A stretch of 64,000 nucleotides of DNA from Escherichia phage vB_EcoM_WFL6982: the sequence record MK373774.1; one strand, 5' to 3'. The notes beneath the pieces were generated by a model. That model was not told where the DNA came from, ran no database searches, and worked only from the letters and a program-made list of their open reading frames with translations. Positions 25,437-30,007 of this stretch are shown piece after piece. Numbering within the stretch: the first letter of the stretch is position 1; each line of letters begins with the position of its first letter. The position numbers and the translations under genes are program-made.

Positions 25437-25886
25437 TTAGATAGATGTAGGCTCTAATTTTATTTTCATGAACTCGGCAAATTGTCTGGCAGTTTTTATG
25501 CCTTGTTCATGACATTCAAATGCATCATCACAGGGGCTATTTTTGTAATGCTTTGCCATATACTTATAGAATTTTTCAGAATTCTCGACATTTTGAATTT
25601 CAAACAAAGTATATACGTTTTTAATCCCTGATTCCATAAAGTTATCAAAATATGGGTCGGTATATGCAGTACCAACGATAGGAGTTGTTGCTGCAAAAAA
25701 CCCCAGCATCGCCTTAACATCTGTGAGGTATTTTTCCAGCTTGCGCTTGCGTGTATAATCAGCTTTAGAACCAGTTTGACGGATATCCTCGTTTAAATGA
25801 GAAATAGAATGTCCTAATTCTCTTCGGATTTCATCCAATTGGGTTACAGTAAGATTACGAAGTTGTCTTTCGTTTAATTGCTGCAT
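25437..25886 (-). CDS. rI: Lysis inhibition regulator rI-like protein
   Basis: C-terminal ~90 aa (...[69 protein letters not shown]) resembles T4 RI; the ORF has a ~59-aa in-frame N-terminal extension, so the true start may be internal. Confidence 0.6.
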
Positions 25887-25913
25887 ATATACCTCTTGGT
25901 TAGATATTAGTAT

Positions 25914-26495
25914 TTATAACAACCCTGTCAAATCATTCCAATGCTTCCGGCATAATGACACGTATCTATCGGTATCACCAATTTCAATTTGACTGCCATC
26001 TGTAATTGGAAGTCCGTCTTCCGTGACTCTAGCTACCATTGTGGCCTTTTTACCACAATGACAGACGCCTTTAAGTTCAACAAGCTTATCGGCAATAGCC
26101 ATTAATGCTTGAGAACCTTCAAATAGATTACCTTTAAAATCTGTTCGTAGTCCATATGCCATTACCGGCACATTGTATACGTCAACAATACGACTAAGTT
26201 GATACACCTTTTCAGTAGTTAAGAACTGAGCTTCGTCAACAAATACGCAGTGAATATCCTTTTGTGCTGCAGCCCATTTATAAAATTCAAAGATATCCAT
26301 GTCTTTTGTAATTATATTGGCGTCCTGACGAATACCAATACGAGAGACTATTTCACCTTTTGAATCGCGAGTATCAATAGCCGGTTTAAGAACTAATACA
26401 CCCATGCCACGTTCTTTATAGTTATGTGCGGCAGTAAGTAATGAAGCAGACTTACCAGCGTTCATAGCGGCATATGTAAAAATTAAACTAGCCAT
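25914..26495 (-). CDS. tk: Thymidine kinase
   Basis: 193 aa; P-loop YAAMNAGKS, CxxC...C zinc site (VCHCGKKAT ... CRKH); T4 Tk length. Confidence 0.95.
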   Translation of the reverse strand: MASLIFTYAAMNAGKSASLLTAAHNYKERGMGVLVLKPAIDTRDSKGEIVSRIGIRQDANIITKDMDIFEFYKWAAAQKDIHCVFVDEAQFLTTEKVYQLSRIVDVYNVPVMAYGLRTDFKGNLFEGSQALMAIADKLVELKGVCHCGKKATMVARVTEDGLPITDGSQIEIGDTDRYVSLCRKHWNDLTGLL

Positions 26496-26504
26496 AAGAG
26501 TCCT

Positions 26505-26687
26505 TTATAGTGAATTCACGTAGTCAATGAGTTCTTGTTCTTTCCTGTCAAATGATTCCATCAATGCGTGATATTCTTCGTCCGTCAAAGGAGCATATTC
26601 ATCATACGCATTGGTGGCTGATTGTTCATCCAATAGGTCATGGATAAGTTCGAATAGTTTAGCTTTCTCTTCTTTAGTCAATTTCAT
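26505..26687 (-). CDS. Small hypothetical acidic protein (60 aa)
   Basis: Track ORF. Confidence 0.45.
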   Translation of the reverse strand: MKLTKEEKAKLFELIHDLLDEQSATNAYDEYAPLTDEEYHALMESFDRKEQELIDYVNSL

Positions 26688-27178
26688 TTAGGTTCCCAAT
26701 CAACAATCACAATTTCTAGTTTAGTGGAATATGTATCTAAAATCTCTTCGATGACGTCCCAGTTTCCACCGCCAATACCTGCACCAATTCTTGGCATATA
26801 AATTACAGGCTTTGTTATCTTATTCTTTCCGAATTCATTTAATTCTATTATACAATTCATTAAAGCAGAGTACTCAAAATTAGGTCCCGGCTCAAACTGT
26901 GTATAAAGATTAAAGCAATAAGCTTTATGGGTCTTAAAATATTTTTCATAAACCGAATAAGTCCCGAGTTTAGACTTGTCTCCGAATTCGGTTTGAAGTT
27001 TATCGGCTTCTAAAATTTTTGGATAAGCCTTTGCTAATTGGCCTGCTACACCGGCGCCCATTGTATGAAAACAATTACACCCATGAGCAATATTATTACC
27101 TTTAGAAAACAGGGCGACAATATCGCCCTTGATATAGTTTTTAATCACTTGCTGCAAGTCCTCTATTATAAGAGTCAA
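26684..27178 (-). CDS. Macro domain protein, TARG1/OARD1 (Poa1p)-like ADP-ribose processing enzyme
   Basis: GDIVALFSKGNNIAHGCNCFHTMGAGVAGQ and YMPRIGAGIGGGNWDVIEEIL blocks parallel human TARG1 (AHCISEDCRMGAGIA; SMPRIGCGLDRLQW). Starts with TTG; overlaps upstream gene end by ~38 nt. Confidence 0.6.
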   Translation of the reverse strand: MTLIIEDLQQVIKNYIKGDIVALFSKGNNIAHGCNCFHTMGAGVAGQLAKAYPKILEADKLQTEFGDKSKLGTYSVYEKYFKTHKAYCFNLYTQFEPGPNFEYSALMNCIIELNEFGKNKITKPVIYMPRIGAGIGGGNWDVIEEILDTYSTKLEIVIVDWEPK

Positions 27179-27488
27179 CTAGACGGTCCACCATAGAATT
27201 GCATGCTGCCTTATCTTTAGGTTCCGCCACCGAGCATTCTAATATTTGCCATTTTTTATAGTATCTTTTAATTAAGGTAGACGCCTTGAACCTACTAGAC
27301 GCCCCGTCTTTTTCTCCGTCTTTATACGCGTATAACAATTTTTGTGAAAAATCTACTTTACACTCTTGACTTTTACCACAATAATCAGACGCCGTTCTGT
27401 TTGTATACTCCGTTACATCAGTATATGTAGTATTAGCAAGAGCGTTAAATGAAACCAAGCTAACTATTAAAGCCAACATTTTGGTCAT
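27141..27488 (-). CDS. Secreted or periplasmic small protein (signal peptide)
   Basis: N-terminal MTKMLALIVSLVSFNALA-NTT signal-peptide-like sequence; four Cys. Confidence 0.5.
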   Translation of the reverse strand: MTKMLALIVSLVSFNALANTTYTDVTEYTNRTASDYCGKSQECKVDFSQKLLYAYKDGEKDGASSRFKASTLIKRYYKKWQILECSVAEPKDKAACNSMVDRLVDSYNRGLAASD

Positions 27489-28027
27489 TCTTTTATTTCC
27501 AGTAGTTTATTTGATTTAAGGTAATTAGCCTTTTCTAGGACTTCAGAAGCATATTTACTTCCGGCACTTGTCTTCCATCCCGCATTATATGAGGATATAG
27601 CTTTTCTTATATCCCCGTTATGTATATTTAACCAATAAGAAAATTCGATATAAGCCCATCTGGCTGAATTAGACCGCTTAGATAGCATTTTCTTAATTTG
27701 GGCATCAGTCATATTATAACCAAGCTGGTTAATTCTTGCCCTCATTGTCGGTAGATAATTTTGGAACATTCCATACGCATGGTGACCTTTCTTATCTTTA
27801 AGATTAATACCGGCAGATGATTCCTGCCATAGTATTGCGGCCATTATGTATCCAAGTCCTTTCTTATGCATATTTTCATGCGTTTTAAATTTTCCATCCT
27901 TAGAAAACTGTTCCCCAAACTGATAAGCATAATTCAAGTTATCGAGTTGGACATTACTAAAAGTATGCTCGGAGCTATGTGCTGATAATGAAAGAGCAAA
28001 TAGACCAGCGAGTAGTGCTTTTCTCAT
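27485..28027 (-). CDS. Secreted lytic transglycosylase-like protein (SLT domain)
   Basis: Signal peptide MRKALLAGLFALSLSAHS; AILWQESS ... YGMFQ resembles the SLT catalytic motif. Confidence 0.55.
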   Translation of the reverse strand: MRKALLAGLFALSLSAHSSEHTFSNVQLDNLNYAYQFGEQFSKDGKFKTHENMHKKGLGYIMAAILWQESSAGINLKDKKGHHAYGMFQNYLPTMRARINQLGYNMTDAQIKKMLSKRSNSARWAYIEFSYWLNIHNGDIRKAISSYNAGWKTSAGSKYASEVLEKANYLKSNKLLEIKE

Positions 28028-28035
28028 GTTTACCT

Positions 28036-28494
28036 CTAGATTTTAATCACTGCTTTAGAAGCTTTTCCTGGTAGTCGTTTATTGTTAATAATAGCCATTC
28101 TGCATTGAAGAGTCTTCATTTTGAATGCCGGATTTTCGCGACAAACTGTAAGTCCTAACCAAAGATTTCCGTCAGTTATTTCTAAACGGCCCGGGCGATA
28201 TTCGACACCTTCGACAAAATCTTCATCAACATCTGGACGTGCCGGCATTGATAAAAATTCTGCAACTTCTTTAACATGATTTTTTACTTTATGAAATAAT
28301 TCAAAAACGTAATTCTCATCTATTTCTCTCTGGATGGCACGATCTAAGAGATGTTGAGAATACTTGATATGAAAGCCTGGTAGTCCAAGAGACTTTGCAG
28401 CATCTTTTATACCGGCATTTATTTTGCGGAACTCCGTTTCAAAGATTCGACGGAGTTTATTACGGCGGATAAAAACGTCTGAATTGATAGTCAT
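28036..28494 (-). CDS. regB: RegB endoribonuclease
   Basis: 152 aa MTINSDVFIRRNKLRRIFETEFRKINAGIKDAAKSLGLPGFHIKYSQHLLDRAIQREIDENYVFELFHK...; T4 RegB-like end to end. Confidence 0.9.
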   Translation of the reverse strand: MTINSDVFIRRNKLRRIFETEFRKINAGIKDAAKSLGLPGFHIKYSQHLLDRAIQREIDENYVFELFHKVKNHVKEVAEFLSMPARPDVDEDFVEGVEYRPGRLEITDGNLWLGLTVCRENPAFKMKTLQCRMAIINNKRLPGKASKAVIKI

Positions 28495-28522
28495 TTTGAT
28501 TTCTCCTCTAGTTGACAGGTCT

Positions 28523-28551
28523 ATAGTAACACAACTAGAGGAGAAGTAAAC
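28523..28551 (-). promoter_or_regulatory. T4 early-type promoter inside a 14-bp perfect inverted repeat (regB promoter)
   Basis: Minus strand GTTTAC-TTCTCCTCTAGTTG-TGTTACTATAGACCTGT-CAACTAGAGGAGAA-ATCAAA-ATG; the right arm is also the SD. Approximate coordinates. Confidence 0.55.
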
Positions 28552-28850
28552 TACTCTTTGAAAGGAATTAACTTTTTAACTGCTTTAGATACTTCGTCAC
28601 GAACCTGGTGGAAGTTCTTGAGCTGTTCAAGGCGTTGTTCGTAATACGCAATCTCATCTTCTTCAAGACAATCGTCAGCGTCTTCTTTCAGATATGCCTT
28701 GTACTCATTAAAGAGGGCCCATAGGCGATTCTCAAAGTCATCAAGGCTTTGAATTTTCTTGTGCTTCGGAACAAGGCCAAAAGGATTGCTTTCAGTTATG
28801 CGTCTAGATGCTTCATAATGAGTTCCAAAGCCTGATAGGATTTGAGCCAT
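28551..28850 (-). CDS. Hypothetical protein (99 aa)
   Basis: Track ORF in the T4 vs.x position. Confidence 0.45.
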
Positions 28851-29119
28851 TAGTATTTTTCCTCAGGTCGAAATACTGCACGACAGGCCCACATGCTGGC
28901 TTCTTTTAGATGTTGCTTAGCATACTTAAGAGCCTGCACTGCATCCATATCTTCTTTGGTTTGTTGCTCTGTTTCGTTTTCTTTCAAGATATATGCTTCT
29001 TCAATCAGAGCATCAAACAACAATCCAAGACGGACTTCTGCATCTTTAATAGCGTTCACTTTACCGATTTTATCATCGGTATGCGGCTTGTAGCCTTTGA
29101 TGTCTTCAATCGACATAAG
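28850..29119 (-). CDS. Hypothetical helical protein (~89 aa)
   Basis: Track ORF 28850..29284; probable start at internal ATG ([18 protein letters not shown]...). Confidence 0.4.
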
Positions 29120-29330
29120 GAATTTCCTCATCGGTGGCAAGGTCATATTCGACCAATTGGATAGGCTCATTAATACCATATCCACGTACAGTGATATCAG
29201 TTGCCGGATAGTTTCCAGTAATATCACCCATTCTAAATGCTTCAATGAATGATTGCTCGCCTGAGCAACTAAACCAGGCGGCAAAACATTTTAAAACATC
29301 TTCAGACCCTTCTATAATCAATTTAGCCAT
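29106..29330 (-). CDS. Hypothetical protein (74 aa)
   Basis: Track ORF. Confidence 0.45.
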   Translation of the reverse strand: MAKLIIEGSEDVLKCFAAWFSCSGEQSFIEAFRMGDITGNYPATDITVRGYGINEPIQLVEYDLATDEEIPYVD

Positions 29331-29692
29331 TATAGACTCTCAGTAAAGGTACGAGCGATAACGTCACGCTGCTGTCCCGGAGTCAGAGAGTTAAAGCGAA
29401 CTGCATAACCGGATACACGGATGGTCAACTGCGGATATTTTTCTGGATGCTTAACTGCATCTTCCAGAGTTTCACGACGCAGAACATTAACGTTCAGGTG
29501 TTGACCACCTTCAATTTTAACTTTAGGTTGATGTTCAATTTCAATTTCACGGGCATTCAAACCGTAGAAAATTTCCGGGTCTACAATAGCGTCTTCTTTA
29601 AAAGTCTTAGAGACAATAATCCGGGCTTGAGTACCGTCTTCAAAATAAATAGTGCCTTTATGTGCACCTTCAAGAATTTGATATGCTTTCAT
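29330..29692 (-). CDS. Autonomous glycyl-radical cofactor (GrcA/YfiD-like)
   Basis: C-terminal [59 protein letters not shown] is near-identical to E. coli GrcA including the RVSGYAV glycyl-radical site. Confidence 0.85.
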
Positions 29693-29698
29693 ATAACC

Positions 29699-30007
29699 TC
29701 AATTAGAAAATAAATTTATCCAAGATTTTTCTTTAATCAAAAATGGGTCGGAATTAAACGCCATTAAACTTTGAGTGATTAATCCCTTAAATGGCCCATC
29801 AATAAATTCCATTTTGAAATGCGGAATACTAGTCATCAACCGTGCATTAGGAGCAGTACAAAGAACCTGCTGCCCTGCGAACGGACCTTTAGTCAAACGG
29901 TATCGTTTAGGTTTAAAATGGTAAATCTCGTAATTTTTTACAAGGGCCCTTTTATTGCATACTGGGCTGTTATAACAATATTCAAAAACTTCAATAGTGG
30001 TCATCAT
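29699..30007 (-). CDS. Hypothetical protein (102 aa)
   Basis: Track ORF. Confidence 0.45.
   Translation of the reverse strand: MMTTIEVFEYCYNSPVCNKRALVKNYEIYHFKPKRYRLTKGPFAGQQVLCTAPNARLMTSIPHFKMEFIDGPFKGLITQSLMAFNSDPFLIKEKSWINLFSN

What the first reader, a model, noticed from the sequence alone, without database searches (positions are those of the whole stretch)
26684..27178. TARG1/OARD1-like macro domain enzyme in the tk-regB early operon
The 164-aa ORF shows the two signature blocks of the Poa1p/TARG1 macro subfamily: GDIVALFSKGNNIAHGCNCFHTMGAGVAGQ and YMPRIGAGIGGGNWDVIEEIL, against human TARG1 AHCISEDCRMGAGIA and SMPRIGCGLDRLQW. TARG1-type macrodomains remove ADP-ribose from proteins and nucleic acids, and the antitoxin of DarTG is of this type. 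A phage copy could reverse ADP-ribosylation-based host defence, or edit the phage's own ADP-ribosyltransferase marks. I do not recall a macro domain at this position in T4. The gene has a TTG start and overlaps the upstream secreted-protein gene by ~38 nt, an unusual arrangement in itself.
Basis: partly seen in the sequence, partly recalled or inferred. Interest (0 to 1): 0.65.

Follow-up and report, generated by a model that had tools for sequence, protein, structure and literature searches.

The report
Known phage macrodomain gene tk.4 (AdfM)
The ORF is a genuine ADP-ribose-removing macrodomain enzyme, but it is the ordinary, already annotated ortholog of phage T4 gene tk.4, which a 2025 preprint showed protects T4 from the bacterial DarTG2 DNA-ADP-ribosylating defence.

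Summary

It is not new. GenBank already calls it "macro domain protein". RB69 Tk.4 is 152/154 identical and T4 Tk.4 is 83% identical, in the same regB-vs.1-vs-tk.4-tk position. A bioRxiv preprint (10.1101/2025.11.20.689424) renamed T4 tk.4 adfM, because its knockout sensitises T4 to DarTG2.

The TTG start and 38-nt overlap come from reading the longest possible ORF. The supported start is GTG at 27148, giving 154 aa and an 8-nt overlap with vs.

One refinement emerged. The TARG1 catalytic dyad is absent: Lys84 is replaced by an almost invariant Gln, and Asp125 by Gly. This is the active-site type of Streptomyces SCO6735, which hydrolyses thymidine-linked ADP-ribose on DNA.

Most likely function: removal of DarT2-installed ADP-ribose from phage DNA. 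Verdict: correct identification, already known, low interest.

The parts
26684..27148 (-). tk.4/adfM ortholog: macrodomain protein, 154 aa, GTG start, TGA stop
27149..27178 (-).
   Evidence: In-frame stops in this stretch in T4 and in a 98%-identical relative, and homologues start at the GTG/ATG position.
27159..27163 (-). Shine-Dalgarno-like GAGGA, 10 nt upstream of the GTG start
   Evidence: Read from the sequence. The same GAGGA precedes the T4 tk.4 ATG.
27041..27085 (-). HGCNCFHTMGAGVAG: His22, Asn25 and the first glycine-rich ADP-ribose-binding loop
   Evidence: Coordinates checked. N25 is present in 74/74 and H22 in 71/74 IMG/VR homologues. It aligns with SCO6735 Asn27 via Bt_1257 HICND (PMC9411070).
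26897..26911 (-). NLYTQ: end of the central beta-strand; Gln84 occupies the position of TARG1 Lys84 / DarG Lys80 / SCO6735 Gln85
   Evidence: MAFFT-add, hhalign and hmmsearch all align Q84 with TARG1 K84 and the Bt_1257 Gln. Q is present in 73/74 homologues.
26759..26794 (-). PRIGAGIGGGNW: second glycine-rich (phosphate-binding) loop; Gly126 replaces TARG1 Asp125
   Evidence: Position 126 is Gly or Ala in all 74 homologues, never Asp.
27141..27488 (-). vs (valyl-tRNA synthetase modifier), upstream gene; its stop overlaps the GTG start by 8 nt
   Evidence: PHROG 1256, 3e-35; RB69 annotation; junction GTGATTAA.
26505..26687 (-). tk.2 (60 aa, DUF7438), downstream gene; its ATG overlaps the macro stop (ATGA)
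   Evidence: Pfam DUF7438; RB69 tk.2 annotation; junction AAATGAAA.
25914..26495 (-). tk thymidine kinase (synteny anchor)
   Evidence: Pfam TK, 7e-57.
27485..28027 (-). vs.1 (SLT-like, signal-peptide-like N-terminus) (synteny anchor)
   Evidence: PHROG 600. Weak SLT hit, 18.8 bits, below cut-off.
28036..28494 (-). regB endoribonuclease (synteny anchor)
   Evidence: Pfam REGB_T4, 3.5e-69.

Best explanation
The gene at 26684..27148 (minus strand) is the Mosigvirus ortholog of T4 tk.4, recently named adfM (anti-DarT factor macrodomain). It encodes a stand-alone 154-aa macrodomain of the TARG1/ALC1-like class.

Proposed mechanism: when a host DarTG2 system is triggered, DarT2 ADP-ribosylates thymidines in single-stranded phage DNA and blocks replication. 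The phage enzyme binds the ADP-ribose in the cleft formed by its two glycine-rich loops. It then hydrolyses the thymidine-ribose N-glycosidic bond, releasing ADP-ribose and restoring replicable DNA.

The active site is of the SCO6735/Bt_1257 type: Gln84, held by Asn25, stands in place of the catalytic Lys of DarG and TARG1, and there is no Asp125 equivalent. Catalysis is therefore probably lysine-independent, with Gln positioning the distal ribose and a water molecule doing the chemistry.

The protein lacks DarG's C-terminal DarT-binding domain, so it should act mainly by erasing the mark.

Shown here: fold, class, orthology, synteny, start codon and active-site residues. Taken from the literature: the anti-DarTG2 phenotype of T4 tk.4, and the DNA-thymidine hydrolase activity of Gln-type SCO6735. 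Inferred: that this protein has that enzymatic activity and phenotype.
For: Orthology: the window is 100% identical to phage WFK over the 2.6 kb compared. RB69 Tk.4 is 152/154 identical and T4 Tk.4 is 128/155 identical. The gene order regB-vs.1-vs-macro-...-tk holds in T4, RB69, teqhad, phiR1-RT and a Jiaodavirus and in 40 of 80 IMG/VR loci.

Active site: Q84 aligns with TARG1 K84 and the Bt_1257 Gln by three methods. Q84 is present in 73/74 and N25 in 74/74 homologues. PMC9411070 shows SCO6735 Gln85 is equivalent to DarG K80 / TARG1 K84, that Q85A and N27S abolish or nearly abolish dT-ADPr hydrolysis, and that SCO6735 rescues DarT toxicity.

Function: in a transposon screen, T4 tk.4 was the single significant hit on a DarTG2 host. 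A clean knockout was sensitised to DarTG2 (bioRxiv 10.1101/2025.11.20.689424). T4 lacking adfA and adfN stays DarTG2-resistant, which had predicted such a factor (PMC11825919). A distantly related phage macrodomain, PhiKZ gp104, removes DarT2 ADP-ribose from DNA in vitro (PMC13309987).
Against: No experiment exists on this phage's protein. The T4 evidence is genetic, from a preprint, and the T4 enzyme's activity on DNA has not been shown biochemically in what I could read. The catalytic Lys used by DarG is absent, so the mechanism rests on analogy with SCO6735. SCO6735 and Bt_1257 have a longer 'mobile loop' after the Gln that was proposed to aid DNA processing. Here the loop is short: 8 residues against 14 in Bt_1257. 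Sequence and fold similarity to Poa1p, an ADP-ribose-1''-phosphate phosphatase, is about as strong as to DarG, so other substrates are not excluded.
Confidence: 0.75

Rival explanations
1. It is a Poa1p-like small-molecule enzyme: an ADP-ribose-1''-phosphate phosphatase or O-acetyl-ADP-ribose deacetylase. It would clear soluble ADP-ribose derivatives (RNA-repair or sirtuin by-products) rather than de-modify DNA.
Against: These names are transferred annotations, not tests. The only phenotype known for the ortholog is DarTG2 sensitivity. From established T4 biology (my own knowledge, not tested here), T4 RNA repair uses Pnkp and Rnl1, not the Tpt1/KptA route that yields Appr1p. This activity could coexist with DNA de-ADP-ribosylation.
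Confidence: 0.1
2. It reverses ADP-ribosylation of proteins or RNA. The marks could be the phage's own (Alt, ModA, ModB, including RNAylation) or those of host toxins such as CmdT.
For: TARG1 and SCO6735 also remove Glu/Asp-linked protein ADP-ribose, and TARG1 acts on phosphate-linked RNA/DNA ADP-ribose (PMC9411070; PMC11833690). T-even phages carry three ADP-ribosyltransferases (my own knowledge).
Against: Alt, ModA and ModB make arginine N-glycosidic linkages, which macrodomains of this class are not known to cleave (my own knowledge, not tested). According to the results section of PMC11833690, SCO6735 was inactive on 5'-phosphate-linked and on 2'-OH RNA ADP-ribose, although that paper's discussion describes it as active on RNA phosphate ends. 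T-even phages are sensitive to CmdTAC despite carrying tk.4 (abstract of PMC11618068). No screen linked tk.4 to anything other than DarTG2.
Confidence: 0.08
3. It neutralises DarT2 mainly without catalysis, either by binding the toxin (interaction-inhibition) or by binding ADP-ribosylated DNA.
For: Catalytically dead SCO6735, DarG and TARG1 macrodomains still inhibit DarT in vitro (PMC9411070).
Against: All residues needed for hydrolysis in the Gln-type enzyme are almost invariant across homologues down to 36% identity, which argues for selection on catalysis. The DarT-binding C-domain of DarG is missing.
Confidence: 0.05

Closest known systems
T4 Tk.4 = AdfM (anti-DarT factor macrodomain), and RB69 Tk.4
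   Same: Ortholog. It is 83% identical to T4 Tk.4 and 152/154 identical to RB69 Tk.4. Length, genomic slot between vs and tk, strand, and coupled start at the vs stop are all the same.
   Different: GTG instead of ATG start. The overlap with vs is 8 nt rather than 4 nt. Only tk.2 lies between it and tk, whereas T4 has tk.1-tk.3. GIGGG here against GIGKG in T4 in the second loop.
Streptomyces coelicolor SCO6735 and Bacteroides Bt_1257 (Gln-type ALC1-like macrodomains)
   Different: The loop after the Gln is short here (8 residues, as in TARG1) and lacks the roughly 5-6-residue extension that characterises the SCO6735/Bt_1257 subclass. Sequence identity is only 26-31%.
DarG antitoxin of DarTG2 (Thermus aquaticus, M. 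tuberculosis, Thermosipho africanus)
   Different: No C-terminal DarT-binding domain and no adjacent darT. The catalytic Lys80 is replaced by Gln. The score of 31.8 bits is far below the NCBIfam cut-off of 250.
Human TARG1/OARD1
   Different: Lys84 is replaced by Gln and Asp125 by Gly, so the Lys/Asp dyad mechanism cannot apply.
Yeast Poa1p (ADP-ribose-1''-phosphate phosphatase)
   Different: Poa1p has about 20 extra residues. Its activity on a soluble phosphate ester has not been shown for phage members.
PhiKZ gp104, also named AdfM
   Same: A stand-alone phage macrodomain that counters DarTG2. Removal of DarT2 ADP-ribose from DNA was shown in vitro (PMC13309987).
   Different: Only distantly related: BLASTP finds a 23-residue local match, and hhalign gives 96% with 21% identity. 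It has a TK motif, apparently Lys-type, though the alignment there is uncertain. It is imported into the phage nucleus. This looks like an independent acquisition that shares a name.

Membership tests
Macro domain superfamily (Pfam PF01661) | Profile match above the curated gathering score | tested here: met
   28.2 bits against a cut-off of 22, covering profile positions 2-117 of 118.
Macro domain superfamily (Pfam PF01661) | Alpha/beta/alpha macro fold | tested here: met
Macro domain superfamily (Pfam PF01661) | Two glycine-rich ADP-ribose/phosphate-binding loops | tested here: met
   MGAGVAG and IGAGIGGG are present. G33, G122 and G124 are invariant in homologues.
TARG1/ALC1-like macrodomain class | Nearest structural and sequence neighbours are class members, clearly separated from MacroD, viral and PARG types | tested here: met
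TARG1 proper (OARD1 orthologs) | Catalytic Lys84/Asp125 dyad | tested here: not met
   Gln84 and Gly126 occupy the aligned positions by MAFFT, hhalign and hmmsearch.
DarG antitoxin (NCBIfam NF048014 equivalog) | Full-length match above the curated cut-off, including the C-terminal DarT-binding domain | tested here: not met
   31.8 bits against a cut-off of 250. Only model positions 4-148 of 338 are matched, and the protein is 154 aa.
DarG antitoxin (NCBIfam NF048014 equivalog) | Encoded next to a darT toxin gene | tested here: not met
   The neighbours are vs and tk.2.
DarG antitoxin (NCBIfam NF048014 equivalog) | Catalytic Lys80 | tested here: not met
   Gln occupies the position equivalent to TARG1 K84, which PMC9411070 equates with DarG K80.
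SCO6735/Bt_1257 subclass of ALC1-like macrodomains | Gln in place of the catalytic Lys, positioned by a conserved Asn | tested here: met
   Q84 and N25 align with the Bt_1257 Gln and Asn. They are conserved in 73/74 and 74/74 homologues.
SCO6735/Bt_1257 subclass of ALC1-like macrodomains | Mobile loop about 5 residues longer than in DarG/TARG1 | tested here: not met
   There are 8 residues between Q84 and Y93, as in TARG1. Bt_1257 has 14. 62 of 74 homologues have 8 and 12 have 11.
Tk.4/AdfM orthologous group of Tevenvirinae | High full-length identity to T4 and RB69 Tk.4 | tested here: met
   128/155 identical to T4 Tk.4 and 152/154 to RB69 Tk.4.
Tk.4/AdfM orthologous group of Tevenvirinae | Conserved position regB-vs.1-vs-tk.4-...-tk on one strand | tested here: met
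Tk.4/AdfM orthologous group of Tevenvirinae | Required for growth on DarTG2-carrying hosts | not testable with these tools
   Shown only for T4, in bioRxiv 10.1101/2025.11.20.689424.
Poa1p-type ADP-ribose-1''-phosphate phosphatase | Phosphatase activity on Appr1p | not testable with these tools
   Only similarity is available. His22 and Thr29 align with Poa1p His23 and Ser30.

The most novel reading that the evidence does not exclude
T-even AdfM (Tk.4) may be a third active-site and loop combination within the ALC1-like class. It has the lysine-free, Gln/Asn-based catalytic centre of SCO6735 on the short-loop scaffold of DarG/TARG1. If so, phages would counter DarT2 with a hydrolase that is mechanistically distinct from the host antitoxin, and which might accept further ADP-ribose linkages. 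The AdfM text I could read (the T4 preprint and the PhiKZ paper) does not discuss this residue difference.
Probability: 0.4. Interest if true: 0.3.

Novelty: already known. Interest (0 to 1): 0.12.

Why it matters
Phage macrodomains that erase DNA ADP-ribosylation explain why T-even phages resist DarTG2, and they matter for predicting phage host range. That point has already been made for T4 tk.4, and this gene is its near-identical ortholog, so the window adds no new biology. Two small items are useful. First, the family carries Gln, not Lys, at the catalytic position, which gives specific mutants to test. Second, several GenBank records truncate the gene to 126 aa, removing essential residues.

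Tried and rejected
1. TTG start at 27178 with a 38-nt overlap: rejected on comparative grounds.

2. A functional intrinsic terminator or attenuator at the hairpin 27111..27129 inside the 5' end of the gene. It is annotated as a 'terminator' in phage NBG1. The hairpin is real (-13 kcal/mol) and identical in T4. Against 300 synonymous recodings of the same peptide it is not exceptional in this window (z -1.0; 19% of recodings are as stable). It is absent from many homologues. I left it as an aside.

3. Promoter scan of 25800..29800: 10 sigma-70-like sites against 12.6 expected, so nothing usable.

4. Orthology with PhiKZ AdfM (gp104): rejected. The relationship is only remote homology.

5. Direct residue-level alignment to DarG or SCO6735 sequences could not be obtained, because the PDB tool prints only the top five alignments. 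The equivalence to DarG K80 and SCO6735 Q85 is therefore made through TARG1 and Bt_1257 plus the structure-based alignment described in PMC9411070.

6. The LeRoux 2022 DarTG paper is not held in the library, so RB69's behaviour on DarTG2 could not be checked.

Full report
**What is there.**
The ORF reported at 26684..27178 is on the minus strand. It lies in a run of same-strand genes. These are regB (28036..28494; Pfam REGB_T4 3.5e-69), vs.1 (27485..28027), vs (27141..27488; PHROG 'valyl tRNA synthetase modifier' 3e-35), the ORF itself, a 60-aa DUF7438 ORF (26505..26687) and tk (25914..26495; Pfam TK 7e-57). The stretch 25900..28500 is 100% identical to Escherichia phage vB_EcoM_WFK (MK373775.1), a Mosigvirus of the Tevenvirinae. 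In that record the gene is already annotated 'macro domain protein' (WFK_00108).

**Checking the observation.**
Both quoted motif blocks are present verbatim. The macrodomain assignment is robust.
- Pfam Macro scores 28.2 bits against a gathering score of 22.
- phmmer against PDB finds Bt_1257 (1.8e-10), Poa1p (1.4e-08), SCO6735 (6.7e-05), TARG1 (about 8e-04) and DarG (1.2e-03).
- A profile of 75 homologues raises these to 1.7e-17, 1.2e-13, 1.6e-14, 2e-15 and 1.4e-13 respectively. The next family, coronavirus Mac1, is at 7e-04.
- An AlphaFold2 model built on that alignment has mean pLDDT 95.8 and pTM 0.91.
- Foldseek returns the same set of top hits.

**Start codon.**
The 164-aa reading from TTG 27178 is simply the longest ORF. 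Several lines of evidence point to GTG 27148, which gives 154 aa.
- GenBank annotates GTG 27148 in WFK and in RB69.
- Database homologues are about 150-157 aa and begin MIxKxIKGD.
- In T4 an in-frame TAG immediately precedes the ATG that aligns with this GTG.
- A 98%-identical IMG/VR relative has an in-frame TAG one codon upstream of its GTG.
- Nineteen distinct upstream sequences from the homologues examined have no open codon before the start.
- A GAGGA lies 10 nt upstream of the GTG, as it does in T4.

The overlap with vs is therefore 8 nt (GTGATTAA), and the stop overlaps the next start as ATGA. These are ordinary coupled junctions for T4-type gene clusters.

**It is tk.4.**
T4 carries a gene in exactly this slot, between vs and tk.3: tk.4, 155 aa, 128/155 identical. 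RB69, the type Mosigvirus, has the same tk - tk.2 - tk.4 - vs - vs.1 - regB order as the window, and its Tk.4 is 152/154 identical. The same arrangement recurs in phage teqhad (Tequatrovirus), phiR1-RT (Tegunavirus) and a Jiaodavirus. It also appears in 40 of 80 IMG/VR loci, while the other 40 lie in other phage backgrounds. tblastn finds homologues in 2,800 phage records. A survey of viral NAD/ADP-ribose systems reports macro domains in 41% of myoviruses (PMC9503650).

**What is known about the ortholog.**
A November 2025 preprint used transposon sequencing in T4 (HIDEN-SEQ, 10.1101/2025.11.20.689424). It found tk.4 as the single significant hit on a DarTG2-expressing host. A clean knockout was sensitised to DarTG2, and the authors noted similarity to the M. 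tuberculosis DarG macrodomain. They renamed the gene adfM and proposed enzymatic removal of ADP-ribose from DNA. Earlier work had shown that T4 lacking adfA and adfN stays DarTG2-resistant, and had predicted a further factor (PMC11825919). Independently, the PhiKZ macrodomain gp104 was also named AdfM. It was shown in vitro to remove DarT2-installed ADP-ribose from DNA (PMC13309987). That protein is only remotely related to the one here: BLASTP finds a 23-residue local match, and hhalign gives 96% probability with 21% identity.

**Active site.**
Three alignment methods were used: MAFFT addition to the family alignment, hhalign and hmmsearch of the family profile. All three place Gln84 of the phage protein (154-aa numbering, motif NLYTQ) opposite TARG1 Lys84 and opposite the Gln of Bt_1257 (NMIGQ). 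TARG1 Asp125 is opposite Gly126. According to PMC9411070:
- SCO6735 Gln85 is structurally equivalent to DarG Lys80 and TARG1 Lys84.
- Q85A abolishes, and N27S nearly abolishes, hydrolysis of thymidine-linked ADP-ribose.
- SCO6735 counteracts DarT toxicity in E. coli co-expression, and the paper reports protection in S. coelicolor.

The phage protein has the matching Asn (Asn25, in HGCNC). Across 74 IMG/VR homologues, Asn25 is invariant, Gln84 is present in 73 (one has Lys), and position 126 is always Gly or Ala. The loop following the Gln is short, with 8 residues as in TARG1. Bt_1257 has 14, and the extended 'mobile loop' is described as characteristic of the SCO6735/Bt_1257 subclass. The protein thus combines a SCO6735-type catalytic centre with a TARG1/DarG-type loop. 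It is not TARG1-like in its catalytic dyad.

The protein is also not a DarG. The NCBIfam DarG equivalog scores 31.8 bits against a cut-off of 250 and covers only the macro part, positions 4-148 of 338. There is no darT neighbour.

**Mechanism.**
The best-supported model is that this early-expressed, stand-alone macrodomain hydrolyses the N-glycosidic bond between thymidine and ADP-ribose on single-stranded phage DNA modified by DarT2, which restores replication. Gln84, held by Asn25, would position the distal ribose, and water rather than a lysine would do the chemistry.
- Shown here: orthology, fold, class and residues.
- Taken from the literature: the T4 phenotype and the SCO6735 enzymology.
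- Inferred: the activity of this particular protein.

The rival explanations are a Poa1p-like phosphatase or OAADPr deacetylase, reversal of protein or RNA ADP-ribosylation (including the phage's own Alt/Mod marks), and non-catalytic DarT inhibition. None is excluded by computation, but none has positive evidence beyond transferred names or class-level precedent.

**Side observations.**
A hairpin followed by a U-run sits 17 nt into the coding sequence at 27129..27111. It is identical in T4 and teqhad. A different-sequence hairpin occupies the same codons in rV5-like phages. Some annotators call it a terminator and truncate the gene to 126 aa. Against synonymous recodings it is unremarkable in this window (z -1.0) but stronger in the rV5-like genes (z -2.8 to -3.6). 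Most Mosigvirus genomes carry two extra small ORFs (about 207-213 nt each, 415 bp in all) between tk.2 and tk.4 that WFK and RB69 lack. Vs and Vs.1 both have signal-peptide-like N-termini, in T4 too.

**Verdict.**
However, the gene is a well-conserved, already annotated and recently characterised member of the T-even early gene set. The 'unusual' start and overlap come from reading the longest ORF. Novelty: already known. Interest: low.

Noticed in passing
window 27111..27129 (minus strand), inside the 5' end of the macro CDS: An 8-bp hairpin (AGGGCGAT-ATT-GTCGCCCT, -13 kcal/mol) followed by GTTTTCT, 17 nt after the GTG start. It is identical in T4 tk.4 and in teqhad (58% protein identity). 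A different-sequence hairpin lies at the same G-D-L-I-S-L-F codons in rV5-like phages. It is not exceptional against synonymous recoding here (z -1.0), but it is in the rV5-like genes (z -2.8 to -3.6). A possible attenuator after vs; unresolved.
   Followed up: partly
L003 1397-1777 and L004 1397-1777 (phages NicPhage and NBG1); equivalent to window 26684..27064: Some GenBank records start the macro gene at the internal Met, giving 126 aa, and NBG1 labels the hairpin 'terminator'. This truncation removes the first beta-strand, His22 and Asn25, and is almost certainly a mis-annotation.
   Followed up: yes
window about 26687 (junction tk.2 / macro gene); L003 985-1400: Most Mosigvirus genomes carry two extra small ORFs (about 207-213 nt each, 415 bp in all) between tk.2 and tk.4. 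WFK, this window and RB69 lack them, and T4 has tk.1-tk.3 there. This looks like a small-ORF indel hotspot.
   Followed up: partly
window 27141..27488 (vs) and 27485..28027 (vs.1), minus strand; L002 2157-2504 (T4 vs): Vs, annotated as a modifier of the cytoplasmic valyl-tRNA synthetase, begins with a classic signal-peptide-like sequence: MTKMLALIVSLVSFNALA here and MTKILVLCIGLISFSASASA in T4. It also has four conserved Cys. Vs.1 begins MRKALLAGLFALSLSAHS and has a weak SLT transglycosylase match (18.8 bits, below cut-off). An exported Vs would sit oddly with its textbook function. The HIDEN-SEQ preprint finds vs conditionally important in minimal medium.
   Followed up: no
IMG/VR homologues L009-L088 (alignment): One of 74 phage homologues has Lys instead of Gln at the catalytic position 84, a natural Q-to-K variant that could inform the mechanism. 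Twelve homologues have an 11-residue rather than 8-residue loop after it.
   Followed up: no
literature (PMC13309987 and bioRxiv 10.1101/2025.11.20.689424): Two groups independently gave the name AdfM to two only remotely related phage macrodomains, T4 Tk.4 and PhiKZ gp104. The PhiKZ protein appears to keep a TK (Lys-type) motif, whereas the T-even one has TQ.
   Followed up: partly
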